Assembly: GCA_030614005.1 (NCBI GenBank)
Contig: JAUWKS010000045.1
Coordinates: 1 to 26,377 of the forward strand
Source: Candidatus Heimdallarchaeota archaeon
GTDB lineage: Archaea > Asgardarchaeota > Heimdallarchaeia > JABLTI01
Length of the DNA stretch: 26,377 nucleotides
Direction: 5' to 3'
Both the position numbers and the translations under genes were made by a program. The notes under the pieces are model-generated. The model was given only the letters and a program-made list of their open reading frames with translations. It ran no database searches and had not been told where the DNA came from. Below are positions 8,213 to 23,144 of the stretch, one piece after another (position 1 is the stretch's first letter; every line of letters begins with the position of its first letter).

Positions 8213-8499
8213 ATAATAACCCTCAATTTATTTATAAGAATAATAATAACGATTAGTTATTAAACTTTAATGAAAGGACAAAATAGTTTTAACTTTACAG
8301 ATAAACACAATTGTTGTCTTAATCTTTTAAATGTTTTTTAGGAAAATTCTCTACCATATTTAAATGTATAAGTATGAGACTAAATTAAAGAGAAAATAGC
8401 ACAATCCGAAAGGTAATAAAGAAGTTCGGTAGATTTTTTATCAAGAAAAGCTTTTTCAATTATTAGAATAACGTTCTTTCCTAATGCGTGGTGAAAAAA

Positions 8500-9906
8500 A
8501 TGAGCGAAGAATCTTCCTCCCTCAACCAAAAACAACTGGCTAAATTGGAGAAAAAGGCAAAACAATTCGGGTACGAAAATTTGAGCTTCTTCATTGAAGA
8601 TATTGATGTACTACTTCGACCTTCCAATCTCCTTAAAGAAAAGGATATGAAATATTTTGAATTAGAGAATTTAATCTCATTACTTGATAGTAAAAAAATC
8701 AGTTTAGGTATGGCTCCTAGAATGATTTCTATGGTATCAAAATATTCAGAAAGAAATGAAGAATTGGAAGAAGAAACTGCCACTCTTAAACAGGAAAACA
8801 TTACTCTAAAGAGTAAACATCAGACAGCTGCAGCTCAAGCAAAAGAATTACAAAATCAGTTACAGAATCTATCCGCAGCTCCTCAAGCTGATGCAAAAAT
8901 TAGAGAAACAAACATCAAGTTGACTGAAGAAAGTAAATATCTCAAAATAACTAATGAATCGCTTTCAACTGATCTAAAGAAGATTAAAGTGAAATATGAT
9001 GAAAAACTCGAAGAAGCAAATGATTTAGAAGTCGAGAATAGTCAATTAGAAATGCGTATGAAAGATCTTCAAAGAGAACTTAAAGAAGTTGCTCTAGAGT
9101 TTGAAGAAGAAAAGAGAAAAGGGTCAGGTTCAGATAAAACACTCAAGAATATTGAAAAAATTATTGAAGAATTAGATGAGATTTATGGAACAGTAGATGA
9201 TCCTTTCAAGAAGGAATTTCTAGCTTTTCTTGGTGTAGAGCTTAGTGAAATCATTGACAATAGGCATATCACTAAACAAAAAATACTGAATCAAATTGCT
9301 ATTCATGCTCATGAAATTGAGAAGATATTTGAACCTCAAATAGCTTCAATGGCAAGAAGACAATTTGTGAGTGAAGCACCAGTTCAACAAGCTACAAAAT
9401 CACGTGAAACTATTCCAGAACCAGCAAAAAGAAAACCCGTTGAAACTTCAACAAAAGAAACTACTCCCACAACTGAAGAAATAGATCAAGATCCTGACGA
9501 GCGCTCTGTAAAACCAAGTGATTTTCTTAAAGGCAAAGGTGTTCAAAAAGCTAAACCAAAAGATGATGATGGTGAGAAAGAACAACCCGAACTTGAAGAA
9601 GAAGTAAAAACTCCAAAACCAGCATATACAAAGAGAAAATCAAGAAGTAAAAAACCAGTTAAAATTGATCGAACTCCAAGCCCAGAGCTTGTGAAAGTTA
9701 TCGATGTTTTCATTAAATATATTGAGGCGATCAATGATACAAGTTCGTTTAATGACATATGTGATAAATTCATAGAACAAATGTATGAACATGTGGGTTC
9801 TCCCGGTATGACCAAAGTCTATAAAATAAAAAGTGGTGGAGTAAAAAGAAAACAAATGCTTATTGATCTCCTAACTGCTTGGAAGAAAGAATTACCAGAA
9901 ATGTAA
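8500..9906 (+). CDS. Hypothetical long coiled-coil protein with charged linker and small C-terminal helical domain
   Basis: Heptad-rich E/K/L segment from about residue 75 to 225, a P/E/K/T-rich linker, and a ~75-aa C-terminal domain. ATG 8500 follows GGTGA. No NTPase motifs. Confidence 0.75.
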   Translation: MSEESSSLNQKQLAKLEKKAKQFGYENLSFFIEDIDVLLRPSNLLKEKDMKYFELENLISLLDSKKISLGMAPRMISMVSKYSERNEELEEETATLKQENITLKSKHQTAAAQAKELQNQLQNLSAAPQADAKIRETNIKLTEESKYLKITNESLSTDLKKIKVKYDEKLEEANDLEVENSQLEMRMKDLQRELKEVALEFEEEKRKGSGSDKTLKNIEKIIEELDEIYGTVDDPFKKEFLAFLGVELSEIIDNRHITKQKILNQIAIHAHEIEKIFEPQIASMARRQFVSEAPVQQATKSRETIPEPAKRKPVETSTKETTPTTEEIDQDPDERSVKPSDFLKGKGVQKAKPKDDDGEKEQPELEEEVKTPKPAYTKRKSRSKKPVKIDRTPSPELVKVIDVFIKYIEAINDTSSFNDICDKFIEQMYEHVGSPGMTKVYKIKSGGVKRKQMLIDLLTAWKKELPEM

Positions 9907-10522: not shown

Positions 10523-11938
10523 CTAGCTATTACTCTCGGCTTTTTTGAATCGTTTTTCAACTTTTAATAGAACACTTTCAAGACTTTGGAGAAAGTTTTC
10601 AATTTCACTCTTTTTGATTGACACTAAACGACCAGATTGGTGAACTAAAGTATTTCTTTTCTTTCTTATTTTATTAAATGATTGTTCTTCTTTTTCACTT
10701 ACCAAAGCTTTGTCTTTAAGAAATTGGAGCATAACTGAAAAATTTGTATGAACTTCAATTGGGGCATCAAATCTATCTAAAATACCTTTGAAAAGCTGTT
10801 CAGTCGATCTAAAGAGAAAAACTAGCGAAGTTGCTCTTTCTTCCTCAGAAATCTCATCCCACATATTCAATCTATTCTTTACGTACTCAATATCTGTTTT
10901 GAGGGAATTAAGTTCATGATCATAACTAAAAACATCTCGAGCAATGTCATAGAAAGGACTATCAAAGAATCGATTTTTGATTATAGCCGTTTGTTCAGCA
11001 GTTACCTCTAATTCATCTAATATTGGTTTATATATTCTCCAAGCTTGTTGTTTAGCAACTTGATTGCGAGCATATACACGCAATGCTTCTGAGAGATGCT
11101 CAGAAAACTCTTGTTCATAGATTCCATCAATTCGTCGCGAATGCTTGCGTAATAATCGGTCTCCTACTAAGCTTTCAGTAGGAAATTGGCTTAGCGCTCT
11201 AATGTAATTATTTCTTTTAATTTGTTCTTCTTCATCAACAAAAATAACAATTGGAAGAGTTTCAAGCATTAATTGTCTTAAACGGTTAAGAGAATAAATC
11301 GCTAGCAAGTCACTTAGAATAGTCAAAGAACCAAAAAGCAAAGCAAAGATTGCTACATTTATACTATTGGTTATTTGATCAATATAAATGAAATCTAAAG
11401 AGATTGGTGTGTAATGAAGAATAATTATTCCAATAAAGTCTACTAAGGATAAAATAGACCAAAGAATGGAAAACAGAAATAACGTTTCAAAACTGCTCAA
11501 TAAATTATTTTTCTTATCACTACGAGACCGACTTATATACGAATCAATATACAAACCTTTGACGTCATTTACCAATTGAGGGATTAACTTACCATTAATT
11601 TCTTCTCTAATCTTCATTTTTTGTTTATCAGCTAAATGATCTTCATCACCTGAAAAAATAAATAGGGAATCTAAGTTTTCTTTTAGGTTTTTCTCATAGT
11701 ATTTTGCTGTTCCACTTACAAAGTAGATTAACATTGGTGATGCCATATATAAAAATAAAGCAGGAGCAATAAGCAAAAATGCCCATAAAATAAGTGTTCT
11801 AAAATCGAACTCTATACCTTTTACTGTTAAATAAATTGCATATACAATAAACTCAAGGATTATAGGTGCATAAGCGCCTAAAAAGAACCGTTGATTAAAG
11901 AGAGCATTTGTTGTTCTACTTTGAAATCTGCTTGAAAT
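10523..11938 (-). CDS. Multi-pass membrane protein with C-terminal HEPN-like (RxxxxH) domain; probable ATT start
   Basis: The frame stays open 57 codons upstream of the track's TTG (11776) and encodes a further hydrophobic helix. About four TM segments. C-terminal KIRKKRNTLVH. SD-like GGGGT lies 9 nt before ATT 11938. Confidence 0.7.
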   Translation of the reverse strand: MSSRFQSRTTNALFNQRFFLGAYAPIILEFIVYAIYLTVKGIEFDFRTLILWAFLLIAPALFLYMASPMLIYFVSGTAKYYEKNLKENLDSLFIFSGDEDHLADKQKMKIREEINGKLIPQLVNDVKGLYIDSYISRSRSDKKNNLLSSFETLFLFSILWSILSLVDFIGIIILHYTPISLDFIYIDQITNSINVAIFALLFGSLTILSDLLAIYSLNRLRQLMLETLPIVIFVDEEEQIKRNNYIRALSQFPTESLVGDRLLRKHSRRIDGIYEQEFSEHLSEALRVYARNQVAKQQAWRIYKPILDELEVTAEQTAIIKNRFFDSPFYDIARDVFSYDHELNSLKTDIEYVKNRLNMWDEISEEERATSLVFLFRSTEQLFKGILDRFDAPIEVHTNFSVMLQFLKDKALVSEKEEQSFNKIRKKRNTLVHQSGRLVSIKKSEIENFLQSLESVLLKVEKRFKKAESNS

Positions 11939-13607: not shown

Positions 13608-14789
13608 GTGGCTAATTCATCATTGTATCAATATGCATCAAAATATGCACAGAAAGCATATGACCAAGATCAAGCTGGAAATTATAAATCAGCTTTTCAA
13701 AATTATCTGAAAGCTGCAGAAATTCTACAGCAACTTATAAGCTTCACGAGTAATCCCCAGCTAAAAAATATGTACTATATAAAATCAAAAGAATATCTTG
13801 CTCGAGCAAAGGAATTGAAAGATCAAGGTATGCAACCAGCGGATACGAGTAGAAAGAGAAGGAGTTCAAGGAAGAGTAGCGGAGGGGATTCATCTGATTC
13901 AGATGAAGAAAAAGATGAATTAGAAGAGGCAATTGATGAAATCATTATTGTGGAAAAACCAAATGTCAAGATGAGCAATGTCGCAGGTTTGGAAGAGGCA
14001 AAAAGAGCTCTAAGAGAAGCGATTATTTTACCTATGAAAAGACCCGATTTATTTACTGGCGCAAGGAATCCTTGGAGAGGCATTCTATTATTTGGTCCCC
14101 CAGGAACTGGAAAAACATTACTTGCTAGAGCTGTAGCTACTGAAGTTGATGCAACGTTTTTCAATGTCAGTGCTTCAAGCATTATTTCGAAATGGTTGGG
14201 TGAATCAGAAAAGCTAGTTACACAGTTATTTGAATCTGCACAAGAAAAACAACCATCTCTAATATTCATTGACGAAATAGATAGTATAGCCTCCACGAGA
14301 GGCGGAGAACATGATGCTATGCGAAGAGTGAAAACAACGCTCATGACTCAAATGAGTGGTGTGACTTCCAAGAAAGAAGACCGAGTAGTTGTTATTGGTG
14401 CAACAAATCTTCCTTGGGAAATTGACCCAGCCTTTAGAAGCAGATTTGAAAAGAGAATTTACATTAATTTACCAGATTTACCTGCAAGATCGAAAATCTT
14501 TGAGATTCATTCCAAAGGAATAGAAATTGAGGACACAGTAGATTTCCAACTTATTGGTGAAATGAGTGATGGATACTCTGGAAGAGATATTCAATTAATT
14601 TGTCGTGAAGCAGTAATGATGCCTGTTAGAGAACTCGATATTTCAGGTGCCCTAGATGACCCAGATATAAAAGCTCGAGCTGTAACAGTGCAGGATTACA
14701 TGTTAGCATTTGAGAAGATTAAACCAAGTGTTGCCCCTGAAGAATTACTTAGATATAGAGATTGGGCTGAAGAATTCGGAAGTATTTGA
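13608..14789 (+). CDS. vps4: Vps4-like AAA+ ATPase with N-terminal MIT domain (ESCRT-III disassembly)
   Basis: MIT three-helix region (AQKAYDQDQAGNYKSAFQNYLKAAE), Walker A GPPGTGKT, pore loop SKWLGESEKL, Walker B IFIDEID, GATNLPWEID, RFEKRIYI, C-terminal helix WAEEFGS. No eukaryotic beta-domain insert. Confidence 0.93.
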   Translation: MANSSLYQYASKYAQKAYDQDQAGNYKSAFQNYLKAAEILQQLISFTSNPQLKNMYYIKSKEYLARAKELKDQGMQPADTSRKRRSSRKSSGGDSSDSDEEKDELEEAIDEIIIVEKPNVKMSNVAGLEEAKRALREAIILPMKRPDLFTGARNPWRGILLFGPPGTGKTLLARAVATEVDATFFNVSASSIISKWLGESEKLVTQLFESAQEKQPSLIFIDEIDSIASTRGGEHDAMRRVKTTLMTQMSGVTSKKEDRVVVIGATNLPWEIDPAFRSRFEKRIYINLPDLPARSKIFEIHSKGIEIEDTVDFQLIGEMSDGYSGRDIQLICREAVMMPVRELDISGALDDPDIKARAVTVQDYMLAFEKIKPSVAPEELLRYRDWAEEFGSI

Positions 14790-15112
14790 AACAATCATTC
14801 GAACAAATTCCATTATCTTCATCTAGCAATTAGCTAAAGATTTTTCTTTGGAAATTGTTAGACACCATTCTAATGATTTCTAAATTTTTCAACAGGAGCG
14901 CAGATAAATTGCCTATTATTAAACATTAAAATATGTCTTAAAAATAATATACTTAATATTCAATCAAAATGTAAAAAAATATTATTACAATTAAAACAAA
15001 ATGAATAAAGTATTAACACAGTGTAAATAAACACAGTATGAGGAAAATAGTTTAAAATGAATTGTTTACACTATTATTCTGTTATTTAGAGAAAATGCAG
15101 CGGGAATGCGTT

Positions 15113-15937
15113 ATGTCAGTAAAAGAGAAGAAAAGTAAAGAAAAAACTAAGTCCAAAGGCAACAAGACAAAGCAAGTTGCAGTGAAGGAGAAAGTGAAAA
15201 AAGAAAAAACTGTAGAAAAGAAACCCGCTGAGAAACCTAAAACTAAAATTAAACCACCAAAAGAAGCAACAATTACTATTTCTTTAATTGAGAACCCAGT
15301 AACAACAGAGGAAAAGATATTCAATGCAATGCTTCGAATTGAACAATTAATTGAATCTGATGTGGCAATATCTCGAGAAGATCTTTTTGATCTTGGACAA
15401 GACATCGAAAGACAGCTAGAAGAGATACTACCGGAATGGATTAATAAACCCTGGATGTATGTCACACCAGAGCATCAAAAGCAACTTGATTCCTGGTGTT
15501 CTGATTGGTCTAACTTTATTATGGAATATGCTAGAATAAATATCAAACACATTATCCATGTCGAAGAAGAAAGCTCAAACTATCCTTTCAATAATAAAAC
15601 AGCAAAGAAAAGATTAGATAGAGAACAACTTCAAGAAATAGGCGATTACATTGTTGCTCAAGAGATGGGAATCTGGTGGGATAAGAAGAAAATACGATTA
15701 CGTTTGTATTGGCGAACCCTTGATGAATGGGGAGATATCATCTATGAGTGGAGTATTAAAACAGGGAGAGCTGCAAGTGCAGATAGAGTAATGACATTAT
15801 TTGACATTCAAGATGCAGGACAACCTTGGAGTTCTATACCTCAACAAGATCTCAAAAGGATTTTCAAACTCATGCATGAAAAAGGATATATTGAATGGGC
15901 AGATAAAAAGAAAAAGTCCATTGCTTTCTTATTCTAA
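15113..15937 (+). CDS. vps25: ESCRT-II subunit Vps25/EAP20 homologue with N-terminal basic extension
   Basis: KQLDSWCSDW, PFNNKTAKKRL, WRTLDEWGDIIYEW and TLFDI match the tandem winged-helix pattern of Vps25 (QLAAW, LFNN, WRRPEEWGKLIYQW, TLYEL as recalled for human). ATG 15113 is preferred over TTG 15062. Confidence 0.85.
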   Translation: MSVKEKKSKEKTKSKGNKTKQVAVKEKVKKEKTVEKKPAEKPKTKIKPPKEATITISLIENPVTTEEKIFNAMLRIEQLIESDVAISREDLFDLGQDIERQLEEILPEWINKPWMYVTPEHQKQLDSWCSDWSNFIMEYARINIKHIIHVEEESSNYPFNNKTAKKRLDREQLQEIGDYIVAQEMGIWWDKKKIRLRLYWRTLDEWGDIIYEWSIKTGRAASADRVMTLFDIQDAGQPWSSIPQQDLKRIFKLMHEKGYIEWADKKKKSIAFLF

Positions 15938-15944
15938 AAAAATA

Positions 15945-18149
15945 TTAGAAAGAAAAGAATTTCTTTTTCTTTTCTTCAGCTAGTGCTATTACATTCAAAG
16001 TGATTCCAAAATTCAATATACTTATTGACTGAACACTATTTATTATTGTAACAGTGTTTATTCCGAGTTGTTTTGGTGAATTTTTATAGATAGTAAAAAC
16101 ATCACTTTGAGATGGGTTACTTGAGATATGCAAGTCAAATGTTGTATTTGTTATCCATGAAATAGCATTGTACAGAAATTCTAGATTTTCTGTCGCTTCG
16201 TATTTATTATTTATGCCCCAATTATCGATCATGAAATTTGATCCAGAAATTAATACTCTTCCGGAACTGTAGAGAGAAGTATTAAATCCCGCTAATACTG
16301 GTCGTAAAGTACTGAATGCGTCATTACCCCAAGCAATTTCCTGTGCATTATCTCCAGTAATATTCAATATTGCTCCATAATAGTCAATACTTGTAATTCC
16401 TGCTGTGACAGGGTGATTTTGCAAAAAGTTTGTTATTTCAACTACATCATAGTTCCCATCACTAGGATCTACTTCTAATGAAGGAATACTAAATTCAGTT
16501 GCAGTAATATTGAAATTTTGTAATAAGCGGTTAGTTTCAGTGAGGTTGGATGAGTCATCATCTGTTGTTAATACAAATAAGCCATTTCCATCGTTAACAA
16601 AGTCCACTAATGCAGTAATAGTATCATTAGAAAATGGTCTATAGAAATTTTCGATTTGATTGGTTGAATTAAAGCGTAAACCATAGGAATTTGGATCAGG
16701 TAATATCACAGCATCATAGCTACTTAAATCAGTATAATTTTCAGGAGATCCAAGTTCAATTAATGCTATTGATTCATCAGCGAGATAATCTCTCATTTCA
16801 AGGAATTGACCTAATAGATGATCTATACTCCATAAGGAATGGTAAACATCAAATCCGATACGCACTACTGGTTCCAGTACTTCTACGGAAATGTTTAGAT
16901 GTATAATTTCATCATATTGACTTTCAAATCTTATTTGCTCAAAATAATTGTCAGTTGGAGTGAAATCGGAAGGGACGTCAATATAACAATCTAGAATACC
17001 AGATTGATTATTTGTAAAAGTGCTTGCAATCGATAATATTGATTCACTGGGTGTGATAATATTAGAAGTAATTGTGTAAACCATTTCTTGTGAGGAAATT
17101 ACTGTTAATGGGAAAGACCAGATGTCTTCTTGAAAAACTTTAGAGATACCAAAGGGTAACTCCCCAGGTAAAATGTATGAAAGAATAGGTACATCATTTA
17201 CTTTCGTTGCATCAGTAATTAATTTTTTAGCTCCCTCAACACTTGGAAAACCCGCGCCACCATATTGTGCGAGATACTCAGCATTAGCATCAGCACTTCG
17301 CATTAAAGCAGCTTTAAGTAATCCTGGTGATGAAACATATCCTTGCTCCCTACACCAAGAAAGTAGCAGGGCGGCTTTAGCAGCAATTTTTGGTGCTGCA
17401 AAACTTGTTCCAAGAACATTCAAAGCAAAACCGGAATCAAGCAAATCGGGTTTTATTCGGTGATCTTTTAGAGGTCCTAAACTACTGTAATAAGAAACAC
17501 CAAGATAATCAACAGCACCAACGGATATAGCTTGTAACGCATCTGCTGGACCATTAATCGAAGAGAGTGAGTACCGTAAATCATCTCCACTGTTCCCAGC
17601 TGAAACAACTGTTAATACACCTTTTTCTAGGGTTGCTCGATTAATAGCTTCAACAATAGTATCATTGTACAATATCTCTCCACCAAGAGAAATATTAACG
17701 ATATCAGCTTCAGCTTCATCTACAGCCCACAGAAAAGCAGCTAATAATGCTTCATAGCTTGCGGAGCCATCGGAATCTACACATCTACCAATGATTAACT
17801 CCGATTCTGGTGCAATTCCATCTGCTTTGCCTGCAATTGTTAATGCAATAACGGTTCCATGTTGAACATCTGTATCATCAACAATAGTGTAATTTTTATC
17901 AAAACCATATTCCGTTGTTGCGAAATTCTTCGTTAAAATTACCCTATCACCTAAATGGTTTGAGATTTTATAGCCAGCTATTTTTGCATCCATATTTATA
18001 CCTGTATCTAAAATAGCTATTTTAACACCTTTTCCTCCGGATCCTTGTGGAATATAAAACGTTAGAAACAATATCCCGCTTGCTGAGATCACCAAAAAGA
18101 TAATTACAATTGTCCATAAAGTAGTATTATATCGTTGCTTGCTTGCCAT
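15945..18149 (-). CDS. Membrane-anchored S8 (subtilisin-like) serine protease with C-terminal GATase-like/DUF4350-type domain; Site-1-protease-like architecture
   Basis: Triad D48 (ILDTG), H97 (QHGT), S249 (GTSFAAP), oxyanion N186 (SAGNSG). N-terminal TM helix at about residues 11-32. C-terminal domain begins RIGFDVYH. SD GAGGT. Confidence 0.9.
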   Translation of the reverse strand: MASKQRYNTTLWTIVIIFLVISASGILFLTFYIPQGSGGKGVKIAILDTGINMDAKIAGYKISNHLGDRVILTKNFATTEYGFDKNYTIVDDTDVQHGTVIALTIAGKADGIAPESELIIGRCVDSDGSASYEALLAAFLWAVDEAEADIVNISLGGEILYNDTIVEAINRATLEKGVLTVVSAGNSGDDLRYSLSSINGPADALQAISVGAVDYLGVSYYSSLGPLKDHRIKPDLLDSGFALNVLGTSFAAPKIAAKAALLLSWCREQGYVSSPGLLKAALMRSADANAEYLAQYGGAGFPSVEGAKKLITDATKVNDVPILSYILPGELPFGISKVFQEDIWSFPLTVISSQEMVYTITSNIITPSESILSIASTFTNNQSGILDCYIDVPSDFTPTDNYFEQIRFESQYDEIIHLNISVEVLEPVVRIGFDVYHSLWSIDHLLGQFLEMRDYLADESIALIELGSPENYTDLSSYDAVILPDPNSYGLRFNSTNQIENFYRPFSNDTITALVDFVNDGNGLFVLTTDDDSSNLTETNRLLQNFNITATEFSIPSLEVDPSDGNYDVVEITNFLQNHPVTAGITSIDYYGAILNITGDNAQEIAWGNDAFSTLRPVLAGFNTSLYSSGRVLISGSNFMIDNWGINNKYEATENLEFLYNAISWITNTTFDLHISSNPSQSDVFTIYKNSPKQLGINTVTIINSVQSISILNFGITLNVIALAEEKKKKFFSF

Positions 18150-22034: not shown

Positions 22035-23144
22035 GTGACTCAAGAACTCAAACAAGCAGGAGAAATAGCAAAAAGGTTAGCAAAAGAGGTCTCTGGTATT
22101 GATTTAATACTTGTCTATGGTGGCATTGCTCAAGGAAGATTTAGTAAATATTCTGACTATGATATGATTGCAATAAGCGATAAGAAGTGGGTTGTTTGGG
22201 AATTCGTTCAGGATAATCAACCAATTTGTCTTTGGCCAATGACTTGGAAGAAAGCTGAAGAGGTAGCTATGGGCAAAACAAGTTATTGGAGTGTTGCAGC
22301 AGCAGCAATCTTCGCATCCAAAGTTGTTTGGTGTAAATCAGATAAAATTTTGAAGAAATTTGAGGATTTGAAAAGATTTCTTTCTGAGGGAGGACCTCGA
22401 ACACTCAAAAAAGCTATAACAGATTATGACAAATTATACGGAAAATTATGGCGAATGCAGAAAGCTATCGAGGAAAAAAATGATTTAGACATCTCGTTTC
22501 TTAAGAATGACATTGTAAATGAACTTGCTCATATTCTTTCAGCTTTAAACAATCACTATTATCTGAATAATTTTGGCAAACAATTACTCGAGATTGAAAT
22601 ATTTGAACTTTTACCAAATGATTTTGTTGAAAATTATAAAAAATTTCTGATAGCAAAACCAGAAGATGCTTTAGTTATTGGAAGCACAATTGTTGATGAA
22701 GTAAAAATTCTCATCAGAAATTGGTTAAACGAACAAGAATTGGAACCTAACGAAAATGCTGCAGGAATTGCCAAAGAATGGCCAGGAATAATTGAATGGT
22801 TAAATAAAACTCTTTCAGCAAATGAAGAAGAAGATTTAATCGGAGGATTAATGGCTGCTAATGAAAACGCTGAATTTTACCTTTGGGCATTTCTATTATT
22901 ACAAAACAAAAAATGGCTTAGAAATGGTTTCTACTCTGTAGAAGAAGAGATGTTAAAATTATCAAAGAATATCTCAAACAATATTAGCACATTATTACAA
23001 TCACAAAATCTTGCTGAAATTAAGGATGCAGCCCAACAATTAACTGCAACATTGGAAGAAGAGTTGAGACTTAGAGGAGCAACACTCCCTATTGCAGAGT
23101 CATTAGATGAAGCTATTCAATTTATACAACAGAAGGAACTGTAA
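22035..23144 (+). CDS. Pol-beta superfamily nucleotidyltransferase, kanamycin-nucleotidyltransferase (KNTase)-like
   Basis: LVYGGIAQG...YSDYDM signature followed by two helical-bundle repeats. GTG start after GGTGA. Confidence 0.8.
   Translation: MTQELKQAGEIAKRLAKEVSGIDLILVYGGIAQGRFSKYSDYDMIAISDKKWVVWEFVQDNQPICLWPMTWKKAEEVAMGKTSYWSVAAAAIFASKVVWCKSDKILKKFEDLKRFLSEGGPRTLKKAITDYDKLYGKLWRMQKAIEEKNDLDISFLKNDIVNELAHILSALNNHYYLNNFGKQLLEIEIFELLPNDFVENYKKFLIAKPEDALVIGSTIVDEVKILIRNWLNEQELEPNENAAGIAKEWPGIIEWLNKTLSANEEEDLIGGLMAANENAEFYLWAFLLLQNKKWLRNGFYSVEEEMLKLSKNISNNISTLLQSQNLAEIKDAAQQLTATLEEELRLRGATLPIAESLDEAIQFIQQKEL

What the first reader, a model, noticed from the sequence alone, without database searches (positions are those of the whole stretch)
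15945..18149. Site-1 protease (SKI-1/MBTPS1)-like subtilase convergent on the ESCRT genes
Seen: an intact S8 triad, a beta-rich middle region, then RIGFDVYHSL...DHLLGQFLEMRDYL...IELGSP...YDAVILPD...ITALVDFVNDGNGLFVL...NLTETNRLLQNFNI...GRVLISGSNFMIDN. From memory, human S1P has, in the same order, VLWDQYHNL...DHIHTNFRDMYQHL...EVLGAP...YGTLLMVD...IAKLRRDVDNGLSLVIF...NIPALNELLSVWNM...GRIVLYGDSNCLDD. Known: S1P primes regulated intramembrane proteolysis of SREBP and ATF6. Inference: an archaeal relative of S1P and a candidate eukaryotic signature protein. Its stop is only 7 nt from the vps25 stop.
Basis: partly seen in the sequence, partly recalled or inferred. Interest (0 to 1): 0.7.

Follow-up and report, generated by a model that had tools for sequence, protein, structure and literature searches.

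The report
Short Asgard subtilase built like S1P
This Heimdall-type Asgard archaeon encodes an intact, membrane-anchored surface protease whose three-domain core matches the eukaryotic site-1 protease, but it is a trimmed side-branch of a larger Asgard gene family, not the closest relative of S1P, and nothing ties it to S1P-style signalling.

Summary
The ORF at 15945-18149(-) is real: 734 aa with an intact, conserved Asp48/His97/Asn186/Ser249 subtilase site. Profile-profile comparison with eukaryotic S1P is colinear over residues 34-673 (99.9%, E 1.6e-34). The GIFT domain alone gives E 8e-10. Human S1P is the only solved structure matching all three domains (Z 38.1, 556 residues).

The S1P reading holds only at family level. 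The protein belongs to an Asgard-wide S8 + beta-sandwich + GIFT family, found in 178 of 399 Asgard genomes; every named relative is Asgard or a probable mis-binned Asgard contig. The window's copy sits in a short subfamily with an N-terminal anchor, no prodomain and no C-terminal helix.

The same genome has two ~1000-aa paralogues with the full S1P topology. In all trees eukaryotic S1P attaches near long forms, not this clade, but an AU test does not exclude the alternative (p 0.10). Reciprocal best hits fail. S1P's Arg-binding S4 pocket is not conserved.

M50 proteases are universal, so their presence is uninformative. The convergent Vps25/Vps4 neighbourhood is conserved only among Heimdall-type relatives. 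This scan had already flagged the family 14 times on other DNA, including both long paralogues. Most likely function: a glycosylated cell-surface endoprotease.

The parts
15945..18149 (-). Whole gene: 734-aa short-form S8 + P-like + GIFT subtilase (P0001), stop codon included
   Evidence: 34 full-length homologues at 30-88% identity
18054..18149 (-). Residues 1-32: short basic cytoplasmic stub (MASKQR) and one N-terminal membrane helix acting as a signal anchor. There is no prodomain: the S8 fold starts about 10 residues after the helix.
   Evidence: Kyte-Doolittle peak 2.63 at residues 11-29. AF2 helix 2-31. Summed net flank charge over 34 homologues is +85 on the N side versus +11 on the C side.
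17214..18044 (-). Residues 36-312: subtilisin (S8) catalytic domain. Catalytic codons: D48 at 18006-18008, H97 at 17859-17861, oxyanion N186 at 17592-17594, S249 at 17403-17405.
   Evidence: Pfam PF00082 E 2.4e-31. Invariant columns. Aligned to S1P D218/H249/N338/S414. hhalign of S8 alone E 2.4e-32.
16872..17198 (-). Residues 318-426: Ig/PapD-like beta-sandwich in the position of the S1P 'P-like' subdomain
   Evidence: AF2 strands 324-425. The isolated domain model (pLDDT 90) matches S1P 474-618 with Z 10.2 over 114 residues, but PapD/ASH domains score Z 10.6-12.1. No sequence-profile signal on its own.
16140..16868 (-).
   Evidence: Weak Pfam IFT52_GIFT (8e-6), DUF4350 and GATase1_like hits. 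hhalign against the S1P GIFT domain 96.5%, E 8.1e-10, 166 columns. Included in the global superposition on 8uw8_A.
15948..16139 (-). Residues 671-734: Asn/Ser/Thr-rich tail predicted disordered, ending in a basic patch (EEKKKKFFSF). No conserved transmembrane helix.
   Evidence: pLDDT <30. A borderline hydrophobic stretch at 706-724 (KD 1.63) occurs only in this sequence, while relatives share only the basic end.
15062..15937 (+). Context only: convergent Vps25-like (ESCRT-II) gene whose stop lies 7 nt from the subtilase stop. Vps4 lies upstream of it at 13608-14789(+).
   Evidence: Pfam calls. Sequence. Same arrangement in four relatives of 48-53% identity but not in Thor-type relatives.

Best explanation
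The gene encodes an apparently active, membrane-tethered cell-surface subtilase. A short basic N-terminus stays in the cytoplasm and one N-terminal helix anchors the protein (type II). The rest faces outward: S8 catalytic domain, Ig-like beta-sandwich, GIFT domain and a disordered basic-ended tail. The outer part is probably N-glycosylated.

The three-domain core is homologous to the ectodomain of eukaryotic site-1 protease and is predicted to pack the same way. The GIFT domain therefore most likely buttresses the S8 loops that carry the oxyanion Asn, as described for S1P (PMC11231238).

The gene is one of three paralogues in this genome from an Asgard-wide family. It belongs to a short subfamily that has lost, or never had, the prodomain and the C-terminal anchor.

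Inferred, not shown: it makes limited cuts in surface or secreted proteins close to the membrane (processing or shedding). Its specificity should differ from S1P's R-x-(L/I/V)-(L/K), because the acidic S4 pocket is absent. It is not the S1P orthologue, and there is no evidence that it primes intramembrane proteolysis.
For: - Intact, conserved triad and oxyanion Asn.
- Colinear profile-profile match to S1P over residues 34-673 versus 204-883: 99.9%, E 1.6e-34. GIFT alone E 8.1e-10.
- Foldseek top hits 9csd_A and 8uw8_A: E 1.6e-32, TM 0.63. All other hits cover S8 only.
- VIA-align Z 38.1, rmsd 3.6 A, 556 residues, 37-670 versus 207-874.
- ESM-Atlas best structural match is a eukaryotic S1P cluster, TM 0.68.
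- Family: all of the best 150 hits have E <= 6e-49 and nearly all have three domains. 178 of 399 Asgard genomes match.
- Own-genome paralogues P0373 and P0374 have signal peptide, ~220-aa pro-region, core, C-terminal helix and basic tail.
- Outside-facing topology: flank charge +85 versus +11. Seven N-x-S/T sequons are conserved in >=80% of homologues, against 0-1 for control motifs.
- The short clade is monophyletic (SH-aLRT 96-99) and not adjacent to eukaryotes in any tree.
- S4/S1 residues are not conserved (residue list from PMC12067269).
Against: - No biochemical or expression data exist; the function is inferred from homology and topology.
- Subtilases normally need a prodomain to fold, and none is present.
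- The middle domain has no sequence similarity to the S1P P-like domain by itself, and its fold is a common one.
- The Pfam S1P-specific models PF23090 and PF23094 do not hit this protein.
- The S8-only tree with bacterial outgroups does not recover the family as one group.
- The AU test does not reject a tree joining the short clade with eukaryotic S1P (p 0.10).
- Distribution outside Asgard could not be searched systematically.
Confidence: 0.72

Rival explanations
1. One reading: this gene is the archaeal counterpart (orthologue or ancestor type) of S1P and primes regulated intramembrane proteolysis of a membrane-tethered factor together with an S2P/M50 protease.
For: Shared three-domain core and 3D arrangement with S1P. 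Three M50 genes in the genome. The AU test does not reject short clade + eukaryotes (p 0.10).
Against: Best relatives are long Asgard paralogues, not S1P. The S1P profile ranks it 148th of 237 non-eukaryotic sequences, below generic bacterial S8s. All trees place eukaryotes next to long forms. It has no prodomain and the opposite membrane topology. The S4 pocket residues T286/D312/D315/N348 and S1 residue D339 are replaced by Y/I/N/G/S. M50 is present in 14 of 14 control genomes and is not linked to this locus.
Confidence: 0.06
2. It is a bulk degradative surface protease that feeds peptide uptake, with no specific processing role. The extra domains only stabilise or position it.
For: Several subtilase genes in the genome, with seven profile matches. 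No conserved specificity pocket shared with S1P. No substrate or partner gene is linked. Other peptidases lie in the neighbourhood: M20 in the window and another S8 in syntenic contigs.
Against: The catalytic domain is tethered about 10 residues from the membrane. Sequence (mean column identity 56%) and gene position are conserved across the Heimdall-type clade, which fits a dedicated role better. No transporter genes are adjacent.
Confidence: 0.2
3. The likeness to S1P is convergent. Asgard archaea and eukaryotes independently fused an S8 domain, an Ig-like sandwich and a GIFT domain, so the architecture is not inherited.
For: The S8-only tree interleaves bacterial S8s with the family. The middle domain has no sequence signal and a common fold. 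GIFT/DUF4350 domains are widespread, and this one also hits IFT52_GIFT and DUF4350.
Against: Same domain order and same inter-domain packing: one rigid superposition over 556 residues at rmsd 3.6 A. GIFT profile match E 8e-10. Some long forms pass Pfam's S1P-specific PF23090 cut-off, in 19 of 399 Asgard genomes and 0 of 14 controls. No third lineage with this architecture turned up.
Confidence: 0.12
4. The catalytic part faces the cytoplasm and works with the adjacent ESCRT machinery (Vps25, Vps4), like a membrane-tethered intracellular subtilisin.
For: No prodomain. The best sequence hits in the PDB are intracellular subtilisins. Convergent Vps25-like + Vps4 neighbours in 5 of 5 Heimdall-type loci.
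Against: The positive-inside rule puts the N-terminus inside: +85 versus +11. Seven conserved N-glycosylation sequons. The genes are convergent, so not co-transcribed. The whole block, including LeuRS and TrmO, is syntenic, so the adjacency is not specific. Thor-type relatives have other neighbours.
Confidence: 0.04

Closest known systems
Eukaryotic site-1 protease (S1P / SKI-1 / MBTPS1; PDB 8UW8, 8UWC, 9CSD; Pfam PF00082 + PF23094 + PF23090)
   Same: S8 catalytic domain, then a beta-sandwich, then a GIFT domain, in the same order and predicted packing (Z 38.1 over 556 residues). Intact D/H/N/S active site. Membrane-tethered with the protease on the non-cytoplasmic side. GIFT motifs align.
   Different: - No A/B prodomain.
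- Anchored by an N-terminal helix rather than a C-terminal one.
- About 300 residues shorter.
- S4 pocket (T286, D312, D315, N348) and S1 D339 not conserved.
- Only about 22% identity.
- Pfam's S1P-specific models do not match.
- Not a reciprocal best hit; no SPRING, SREBP or ATF6 context.
Long-form Asgard S8 + P-like + GIFT subtilases. These include this genome's paralogues P0373 and P0374, Lokiarchaeum ossiferum WP_371801978.1, and Odin-, Ran- and Hodarchaeales proteins. The group is unnamed in the literature searched.
   Same: Same three-domain core. They score 183-355 bits with this protein's family profile. Asgard-restricted as far as source names go.
   Different: The long forms have a signal peptide, a 130-225-aa pro-region, a 120-490-aa C-terminal extension, a C-terminal helix and a basic tail, which in the ~1270-aa clade is a zinc ribbon. 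The window's protein has none of these.
Intracellular subtilisin proteases (ISP; PDB 7XR8, 7Y6M, 2XRM)
   Same: Highest single-sequence similarity in the PDB for the S8 domain (E about 1e-14). No classical prodomain.
   Different: ISPs are soluble cytoplasmic single-domain enzymes. This protein has a membrane anchor, two extra domains and an outward-facing topology.

Membership tests
Eukaryotic S1P / MBTPS1 | S8 domain with Asp-His-Ser triad and oxyanion Asn | tested here: met
   D48/H97/N186/S249 are conserved and align to D218/H249/N338/S414.
Eukaryotic S1P / MBTPS1 | P-like beta-sandwich directly after S8 (Pfam PF23094 MBTPS1_3rd) | tested here: inconclusive
   A beta-sandwich sits in the right place and superposes on S1P 474-618 (Z 10.2, 114 residues), but PapD/ASH domains score as well or better. 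hhalign is not significant. PF23094 has no hit.
Eukaryotic S1P / MBTPS1 | GIFT / GATase-like fourth domain packed against S8 (Pfam PF23090 MBTPS1_4th) | tested here: inconclusive
   Profile-profile match to the S1P GIFT domain is 96.5%, E 8.1e-10, and the domain is part of the global superposition. Pfam's own HMM does not match this protein or any gene of this genome.
Eukaryotic S1P / MBTPS1 | N-terminal A/B prodomain removed by autocatalysis | tested here: not met
   The S8 fold starts at about residue 36, directly after the membrane helix. All short-clade members have only 35-60 residues before S8.
Eukaryotic S1P / MBTPS1 | Type-I topology: signal peptide, C-terminal transmembrane helix, short basic cytoplasmic tail | tested here: not met
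   N-terminal signal anchor and no conserved C-terminal helix. The paralogues P0373 and P0374 do have this topology.
Eukaryotic S1P / MBTPS1 | Acidic S4 pocket (T286, D312, D315, N348) and S1 D339 that give R-x-(L/I/V)-(L/K) specificity (PMC12067269) | tested here: not met
   These residues are invariant in 10 eukaryotic S1Ps. The aligned residues in P0001 are Y132, I159, N162, G200 and S187, and no Asgard clade conserves them. The loop alignment carries some uncertainty.
Eukaryotic S1P / MBTPS1 | Orthology: reciprocal best hits and sister position in a tree | tested here: not met
   The A1 profile gives long Asgard forms 183-355 bits and S1P <=124 bits. The S1P profile gives P0001 70.6 bits, rank 148 of 237. 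Trees place eukaryotes by the ~1270-aa clade. Caveat: AU p 0.10.
Eukaryotic S1P / MBTPS1 | Works upstream of an S2P (M50) protease on membrane-tethered transcription factors; needs SPRING | not testable with these tools
   Three M50 genes are present, but M50 rings in 14 of 14 control genomes and none is linked to this locus. SPRING1 (PF10218) was not found, but that search had no positive control.
Asgard S8 + P-like + GIFT subtilase family (unnamed), short subfamily | Three-domain core, N-terminal anchor, no prodomain, 630-750 aa, Asgard host | tested here: met
   34 homologues at 30-88% identity. Clade support 96-99. The closest copies are confined to the same genus and family of genomes.
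Intracellular subtilisin proteases | Soluble, cytoplasmic, single S8 domain | tested here: not met
   Membrane helix, two extra domains, N-in topology and conserved sequons.

The most novel reading that the evidence does not exclude
The S8 + P-like + GIFT body plan arose in Asgard archaea and eukaryotic S1P descends from a long-form paralogue. The window's prodomain-less short form would then be an archaeal 'site-1-type' sheddase. It would cut membrane proteins at the cell surface as the first step of a two-step cascade completed by an intramembrane protease (M50 or CPBP/Rce1-like). It would also be functionally tied to the trafficking genes it always faces: Vps25/Vps4 in Heimdall-type genomes and Roadblock in Thor-type genomes.
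Probability: 0.08. Interest if true: 0.85.

Novelty: new variant of a known kind. Interest (0 to 1): 0.5.

Why it matters
S1P is a central processing protease of the eukaryotic secretory pathway, acting on SREBP, ATF6 and viral glycoproteins. According to the structural paper, its GIFT domain makes it unique among proprotein convertases (PMC11231238). Six literature searches found no paper linking S1P or subtilases to Asgard archaea.

An Asgard-wide family with the same three-domain core suggests that the S1P body plan predates eukaryotes. That would add a secretory-pathway protease to the candidate eukaryotic signature proteins.

This particular gene adds a natural minimal version: no prodomain, the opposite anchor and a different S4 pocket. 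It could show what the sandwich and GIFT domains do for the catalytic domain without SPRING or prodomain regulation.

Its own weight is limited. It is a derived paralogue, its function is unknown, and this scan had already seen the family 14 times.

Tried and rejected
The family's range outside Asgard therefore rests on source names and Atlas clusters only.
- A word-based search with residues 320-700 alone found only the Asgard short family.
- The S8-only tree rooted with 16 bacterial S8s was unresolved (deep supports 20-38), with outgroups interleaved.
- The middle domain alone gave hhalign probability 0.2%. Foldseek's top 50 were PapD/ASH/Ig domains without S1P. In the wide VIA search S1P ranked 9th.
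- Pfam PF23090 and PF23094 found nothing in this genome. SPRING1 (PF10218) found nothing, but the search had no positive control.
- An AU test of 'eukaryotes + short clade' gave delta lnL 16.95, p 0.10, so it is not rejected.
- The P-like+GIFT-only tree has a weak backbone (58-74).
- The idea of a cytoplasmic, ESCRT-linked ISP-like enzyme was rejected on flank charges and conserved sequons.
- The idea of a second, C-terminal membrane helix was rejected. Only this sequence reaches the threshold (1.63); relatives do not.
- The N-terminus of the Vps25-like neighbour was read for a Roadblock-like part; it is a Lys-rich low-complexity stretch.
- Literature searches for Asgard with site-1 protease, MBTPS1, subtilase, subtilisin or GIFT found no relevant paper.
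Full report
OBSERVATION. The window holds an ATG-started ORF at 15945..18149 on the minus strand, encoding 734 aa (P0001). Pfam finds Peptidase_S8 at residues 39-290 (E 2.4e-31). It gives only weak, below-threshold hits to IFT52_GIFT, DUF4350 and GATase1_like at about 470-670. In an alignment of 34 full-length homologues (A1), D48, N186 and S249 are invariant and H97 is at least 90% conserved. An AlphaFold2 model built from that alignment (mean pLDDT 82, pTM 0.80) shows four parts. These are an N-terminal helix (2-31), the subtilisin fold, an all-beta region (strands 324-425) and an alpha/beta domain (429-667). The last ~60 residues are unstructured. The Vps25-like ORF (PF05871, E 1.5e-19) ends at 15937, so 7 nt separate the two convergent stops.

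IS THE S1P RESEMBLANCE REAL? Yes.
- An 18-sequence alignment of eukaryotic S1Ps from animals, plants, a green alga and oomycetes (A2) aligns with A1 in one colinear stretch. It covers residues 34-673 against 204-883, with probability 99.9% and E 1.6e-34.
- Split by domain, S8 gives E 2.4e-32 and the GIFT domain E 8.1e-10 (96.5%). The middle domain gives nothing on its own.
- Foldseek against the PDB puts human S1P first (9csd_A and 8uw8_A; E 1.6e-32, TM 0.63, about 755 columns). All other hits cover only the catalytic domain.
- VIA-align gives Z 38.1, rmsd 3.6 A and 556 aligned residues, model 37-670 on S1P 207-874. S8-only hits reach about Z 31 over about 236 residues.
- The best ESM-Atlas structural match is a eukaryotic S1P cluster (TM 0.68, 564 residues).
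- The S1P structure paper describes the same layout: S8, a non-canonical 'P-like' sandwich (479-616) and a GIFT subdomain (617-998) that stabilises the loops carrying the oxyanion Asn. It calls the GIFT subdomain distinctive of S1P among proprotein convertases (PMC11231238).
- Folded alone (pLDDT 90), the middle domain is an Ig/PapD-like sandwich. It matches S1P 474-618 over 114 residues (Z 10.2), but PapD/ASH domains score Z 10.6-12.1. This domain is consistent with S1P but does not discriminate.

WHAT FAMILY IS IT? A profile search of 1.84 billion representative proteins returned 150 best hits, all with E <= 6e-49. Nearly all contain the three domains in order. They fall into several groups:
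- short forms of 630-750 aa with about 35-60 residues before S8;
- forms with a long N-terminal extension;
- long forms of 800-1360 aa with 130-225 residues before S8 and 40-520 after GIFT.
None is a eukaryotic S1P: identity to an oomycete S1P is 24-35% and Pfam reports only S8.

Every relative that carries a source name is Asgard: Heimdall-, Hod-, Thor-, Odin- and Ranarchaeia and the cultured Lokiarchaeum ossiferum. Three labels differ (Zixibacteria, Bathyarchaeia, Korarchaeota). At least one of these is plainly an Asgard contig, because Vps25 and Vps4 lie next door.

Within the phylum, 178 of 399 genomes have a match at E <= 1e-40. Near-identical short forms occur only in the window's own genus and family.

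The window's genome (3.6 Mb, 90% complete) has three members: this gene and two long paralogues, P0373 (1005 aa) and P0374 (982 aa). Both long paralogues have a signal peptide, a ~220-aa pro-region, the core, a Thr/Pro-rich stalk or extra domain, a C-terminal helix and a short basic tail. That is the full S1P topology.

WHERE DOES THIS COPY SIT? The family profile scores long Asgard forms at 183-355 bits and eukaryotic S1Ps at no more than 124 bits, almost all of it from S8. The S1P profile gives P0001 70.6 bits, rank 148 of 237 non-eukaryotic sequences in hand and below generic bacterial S8s. Reciprocal best hits therefore fail.

Trees of the three-domain core were built with FastTree (130 sequences) and with IQ-TREE LG+C20 PMSF (62 and 63 sequences). 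All give the same unrooted order: eukaryotes, the ~1270-aa clade (Loki/Odin/Ran), the ~1000-aa clade holding this genome's paralogues, a ~1050-aa clade, then an ~830-aa clade joined to the short clade. Backbone SH-aLRT is 89-95 in the two IQ-TREE runs and 85-99 in FastTree. A Hodarchaeales/Heimdall protein (P0385) joins the eukaryotic stem, but both are long branches.

A tree of the two C-terminal domains alone again puts eukaryotes next to the ~1270-aa clade, with weak support of 58. The short clade itself is solid (96-99). An AU test of a tree forcing eukaryotes and the short clade together costs 16.95 log-likelihood units but is not rejected (p 0.10). An S8-only tree with bacterial outgroups is unresolved. 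The most one can say is that this copy is a derived side branch and the long forms are the better candidates for S1P's nearest kin. Descent itself is not proven.

TOPOLOGY AND LIKELY MECHANISM. A strong hydrophobic helix (residues 11-29, Kyte-Doolittle 2.63) follows a basic stub. S8 begins about 10 residues later, so there is no prodomain. This holds for the whole short clade. Over 34 homologues the summed net charge is +85 on the N-terminal flank and +11 on the C-terminal flank, which places the N-terminus inside.

Seven N-x-S/T sequons are conserved in at least 80% of homologues: N86, N152, N162, N381, N471, N547 and N668. Control motifs give 0-1. N152 lies in the N-x-S-x-G-G motif; that this motif is generic to subtilases rests on prior knowledge and was not tested here. 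This pattern argues for an outward-facing, glycosylated ectodomain.

The tail (671-734) is disordered and Asn/Ser/Thr-rich and ends in a basic patch. A borderline hydrophobic stretch is not conserved.

S1P's specificity residues are the S4 pocket (T286, D312, D315, N348) and S1 D339 (PMC12067269). They are invariant in eukaryotes. In P0001 the aligned residues are Y132, I159, N162, G200 and S187, and no Asgard clade conserves them.

What is shown: an intact active site, an S1P-type core and an N-in topology. What is inferred: a surface endoprotease held close to the membrane, with the GIFT domain supporting the oxyanion loops as in S1P, making limited cuts in surface or secreted proteins with a specificity unlike R-x-x-L.

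CONTEXT. The block LeuRS - TrmO - subtilase - (convergent) Vps25-like - Vps4 - glycerate kinase recurs in four relatives of 48-53% identity. The genes are convergent and the whole housekeeping block is syntenic. The adjacency is therefore conserved but not specific evidence of a shared function.

Thor-type short forms instead face a convergent Roadblock/LC7 gene (3 of 3). In 2 of 3 they also follow a divergent Rce1-like intramembrane protease.

The genome has three M50 genes, none near this locus, and M50 is found in 14 of 14 control genomes. SPRING1 was not found, but that search had no positive control.

KNOWN OR NEW. Pfam's S1P-specific GIFT model passes its cut-off in 19 of 399 Asgard genomes, always in long forms, and in 0 of 14 controls. 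It does not match this genome. Six literature searches found no paper connecting Asgard archaea with S1P, subtilases or GIFT domains.

This scan's earlier notes hold 14 findings of 'Asgard membrane subtilase built like S1P' in at least 12 genomes, including both long paralogues of this genome. I had found and characterised those paralogues independently. The family-level observation is therefore a repeat within the scan. What is specific here is the short, prodomain-less, N-anchored variant and its placement away from S1P.

VERDICT. The protein is a true member of the S1P-type three-domain lineage. It is not the S1P counterpart, and nothing indicates a role in regulated intramembrane proteolysis. 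It is a new variant of a known kind, of moderate interest.

Noticed in passing
L002:823-3837 (+) and L003:826-3771 (+), same genome, contigs C69 and C57: Two long paralogues (1005 and 982 aa) with signal peptide, ~220-aa pro-region, S8 + P-like + GIFT core, C-terminal transmembrane helix and basic tail. This is the full S1P topology, and they branch closer to eukaryotic S1P than the window's gene does.
   Followed up: yes
L015:8007-8390, L016:6037-6435, L017:5999-6400 (Thor-type loci): Every Thor-type short S8-GIFT gene examined is followed by a convergent Roadblock/LC7 gene (3 of 3). Two of three are preceded by a divergent Rce1-like (CPBP) intramembrane protease. Heimdall-type genes face Vps25-like instead. 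A small trafficking-type gene tail-to-tail in both lineages is unexplained.
   Followed up: partly
P0385 (1007 aa, Heimdall/Hodarchaeales MAGs; partial form P0234): This long-form protein joins the eukaryotic S1P stem in FastTree and in the C20 mixture tree (split support 89). Both branches are long, so the join may be an artefact.
   Followed up: partly
P0187 and P0190 (~1270-1310 aa; P0187 is Odinarchaeia, P0190 has no source name): Members of the ~1270-aa clade carry a zinc-ribbon domain after the C-terminal transmembrane helix, so presumably cytoplasmic. P0190's GIFT domain passes Pfam's S1P-specific PF23090 cut-off (31.2 bits).
   Followed up: no
L005 = G000:C54:34340-37831 (match at C54:35840-36331): A 342-aa open frame in the same genome matches only the second half of the GIFT region of the family profile (positions 504-669, E 4e-15). 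It is a stand-alone GIFT-like protein.
   Followed up: no
window 15062-15937 (+): The Vps25-like ORF as listed starts at TTG and has a Lys-rich low-complexity N-terminal ~70 residues before the ESCRT-II winged-helix part (133-251). The true start is probably an internal Met (M12 or M18).
   Followed up: partly
window 8488-9906 (+), 10523-11776 (-), 22035-23144 (+): Three ORFs of 369-472 aa have no Pfam family. ORFs without a Pfam family and of roughly similar size (about 465-490 aa) recur at the same side of the block in relatives' contigs (L011, L013, L014).
   Followed up: no
P0008, P0027, P0376 (public MAG records): Homologues are labelled Zixibacteria, Bathyarchaeia and Korarchaeota. The 'Bathyarchaeia' contig carries Vps25 and Vps4 beside the gene, so it is an Asgard contig. 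The other two labels were not checked and may also be binning or naming errors.
   Followed up: partly
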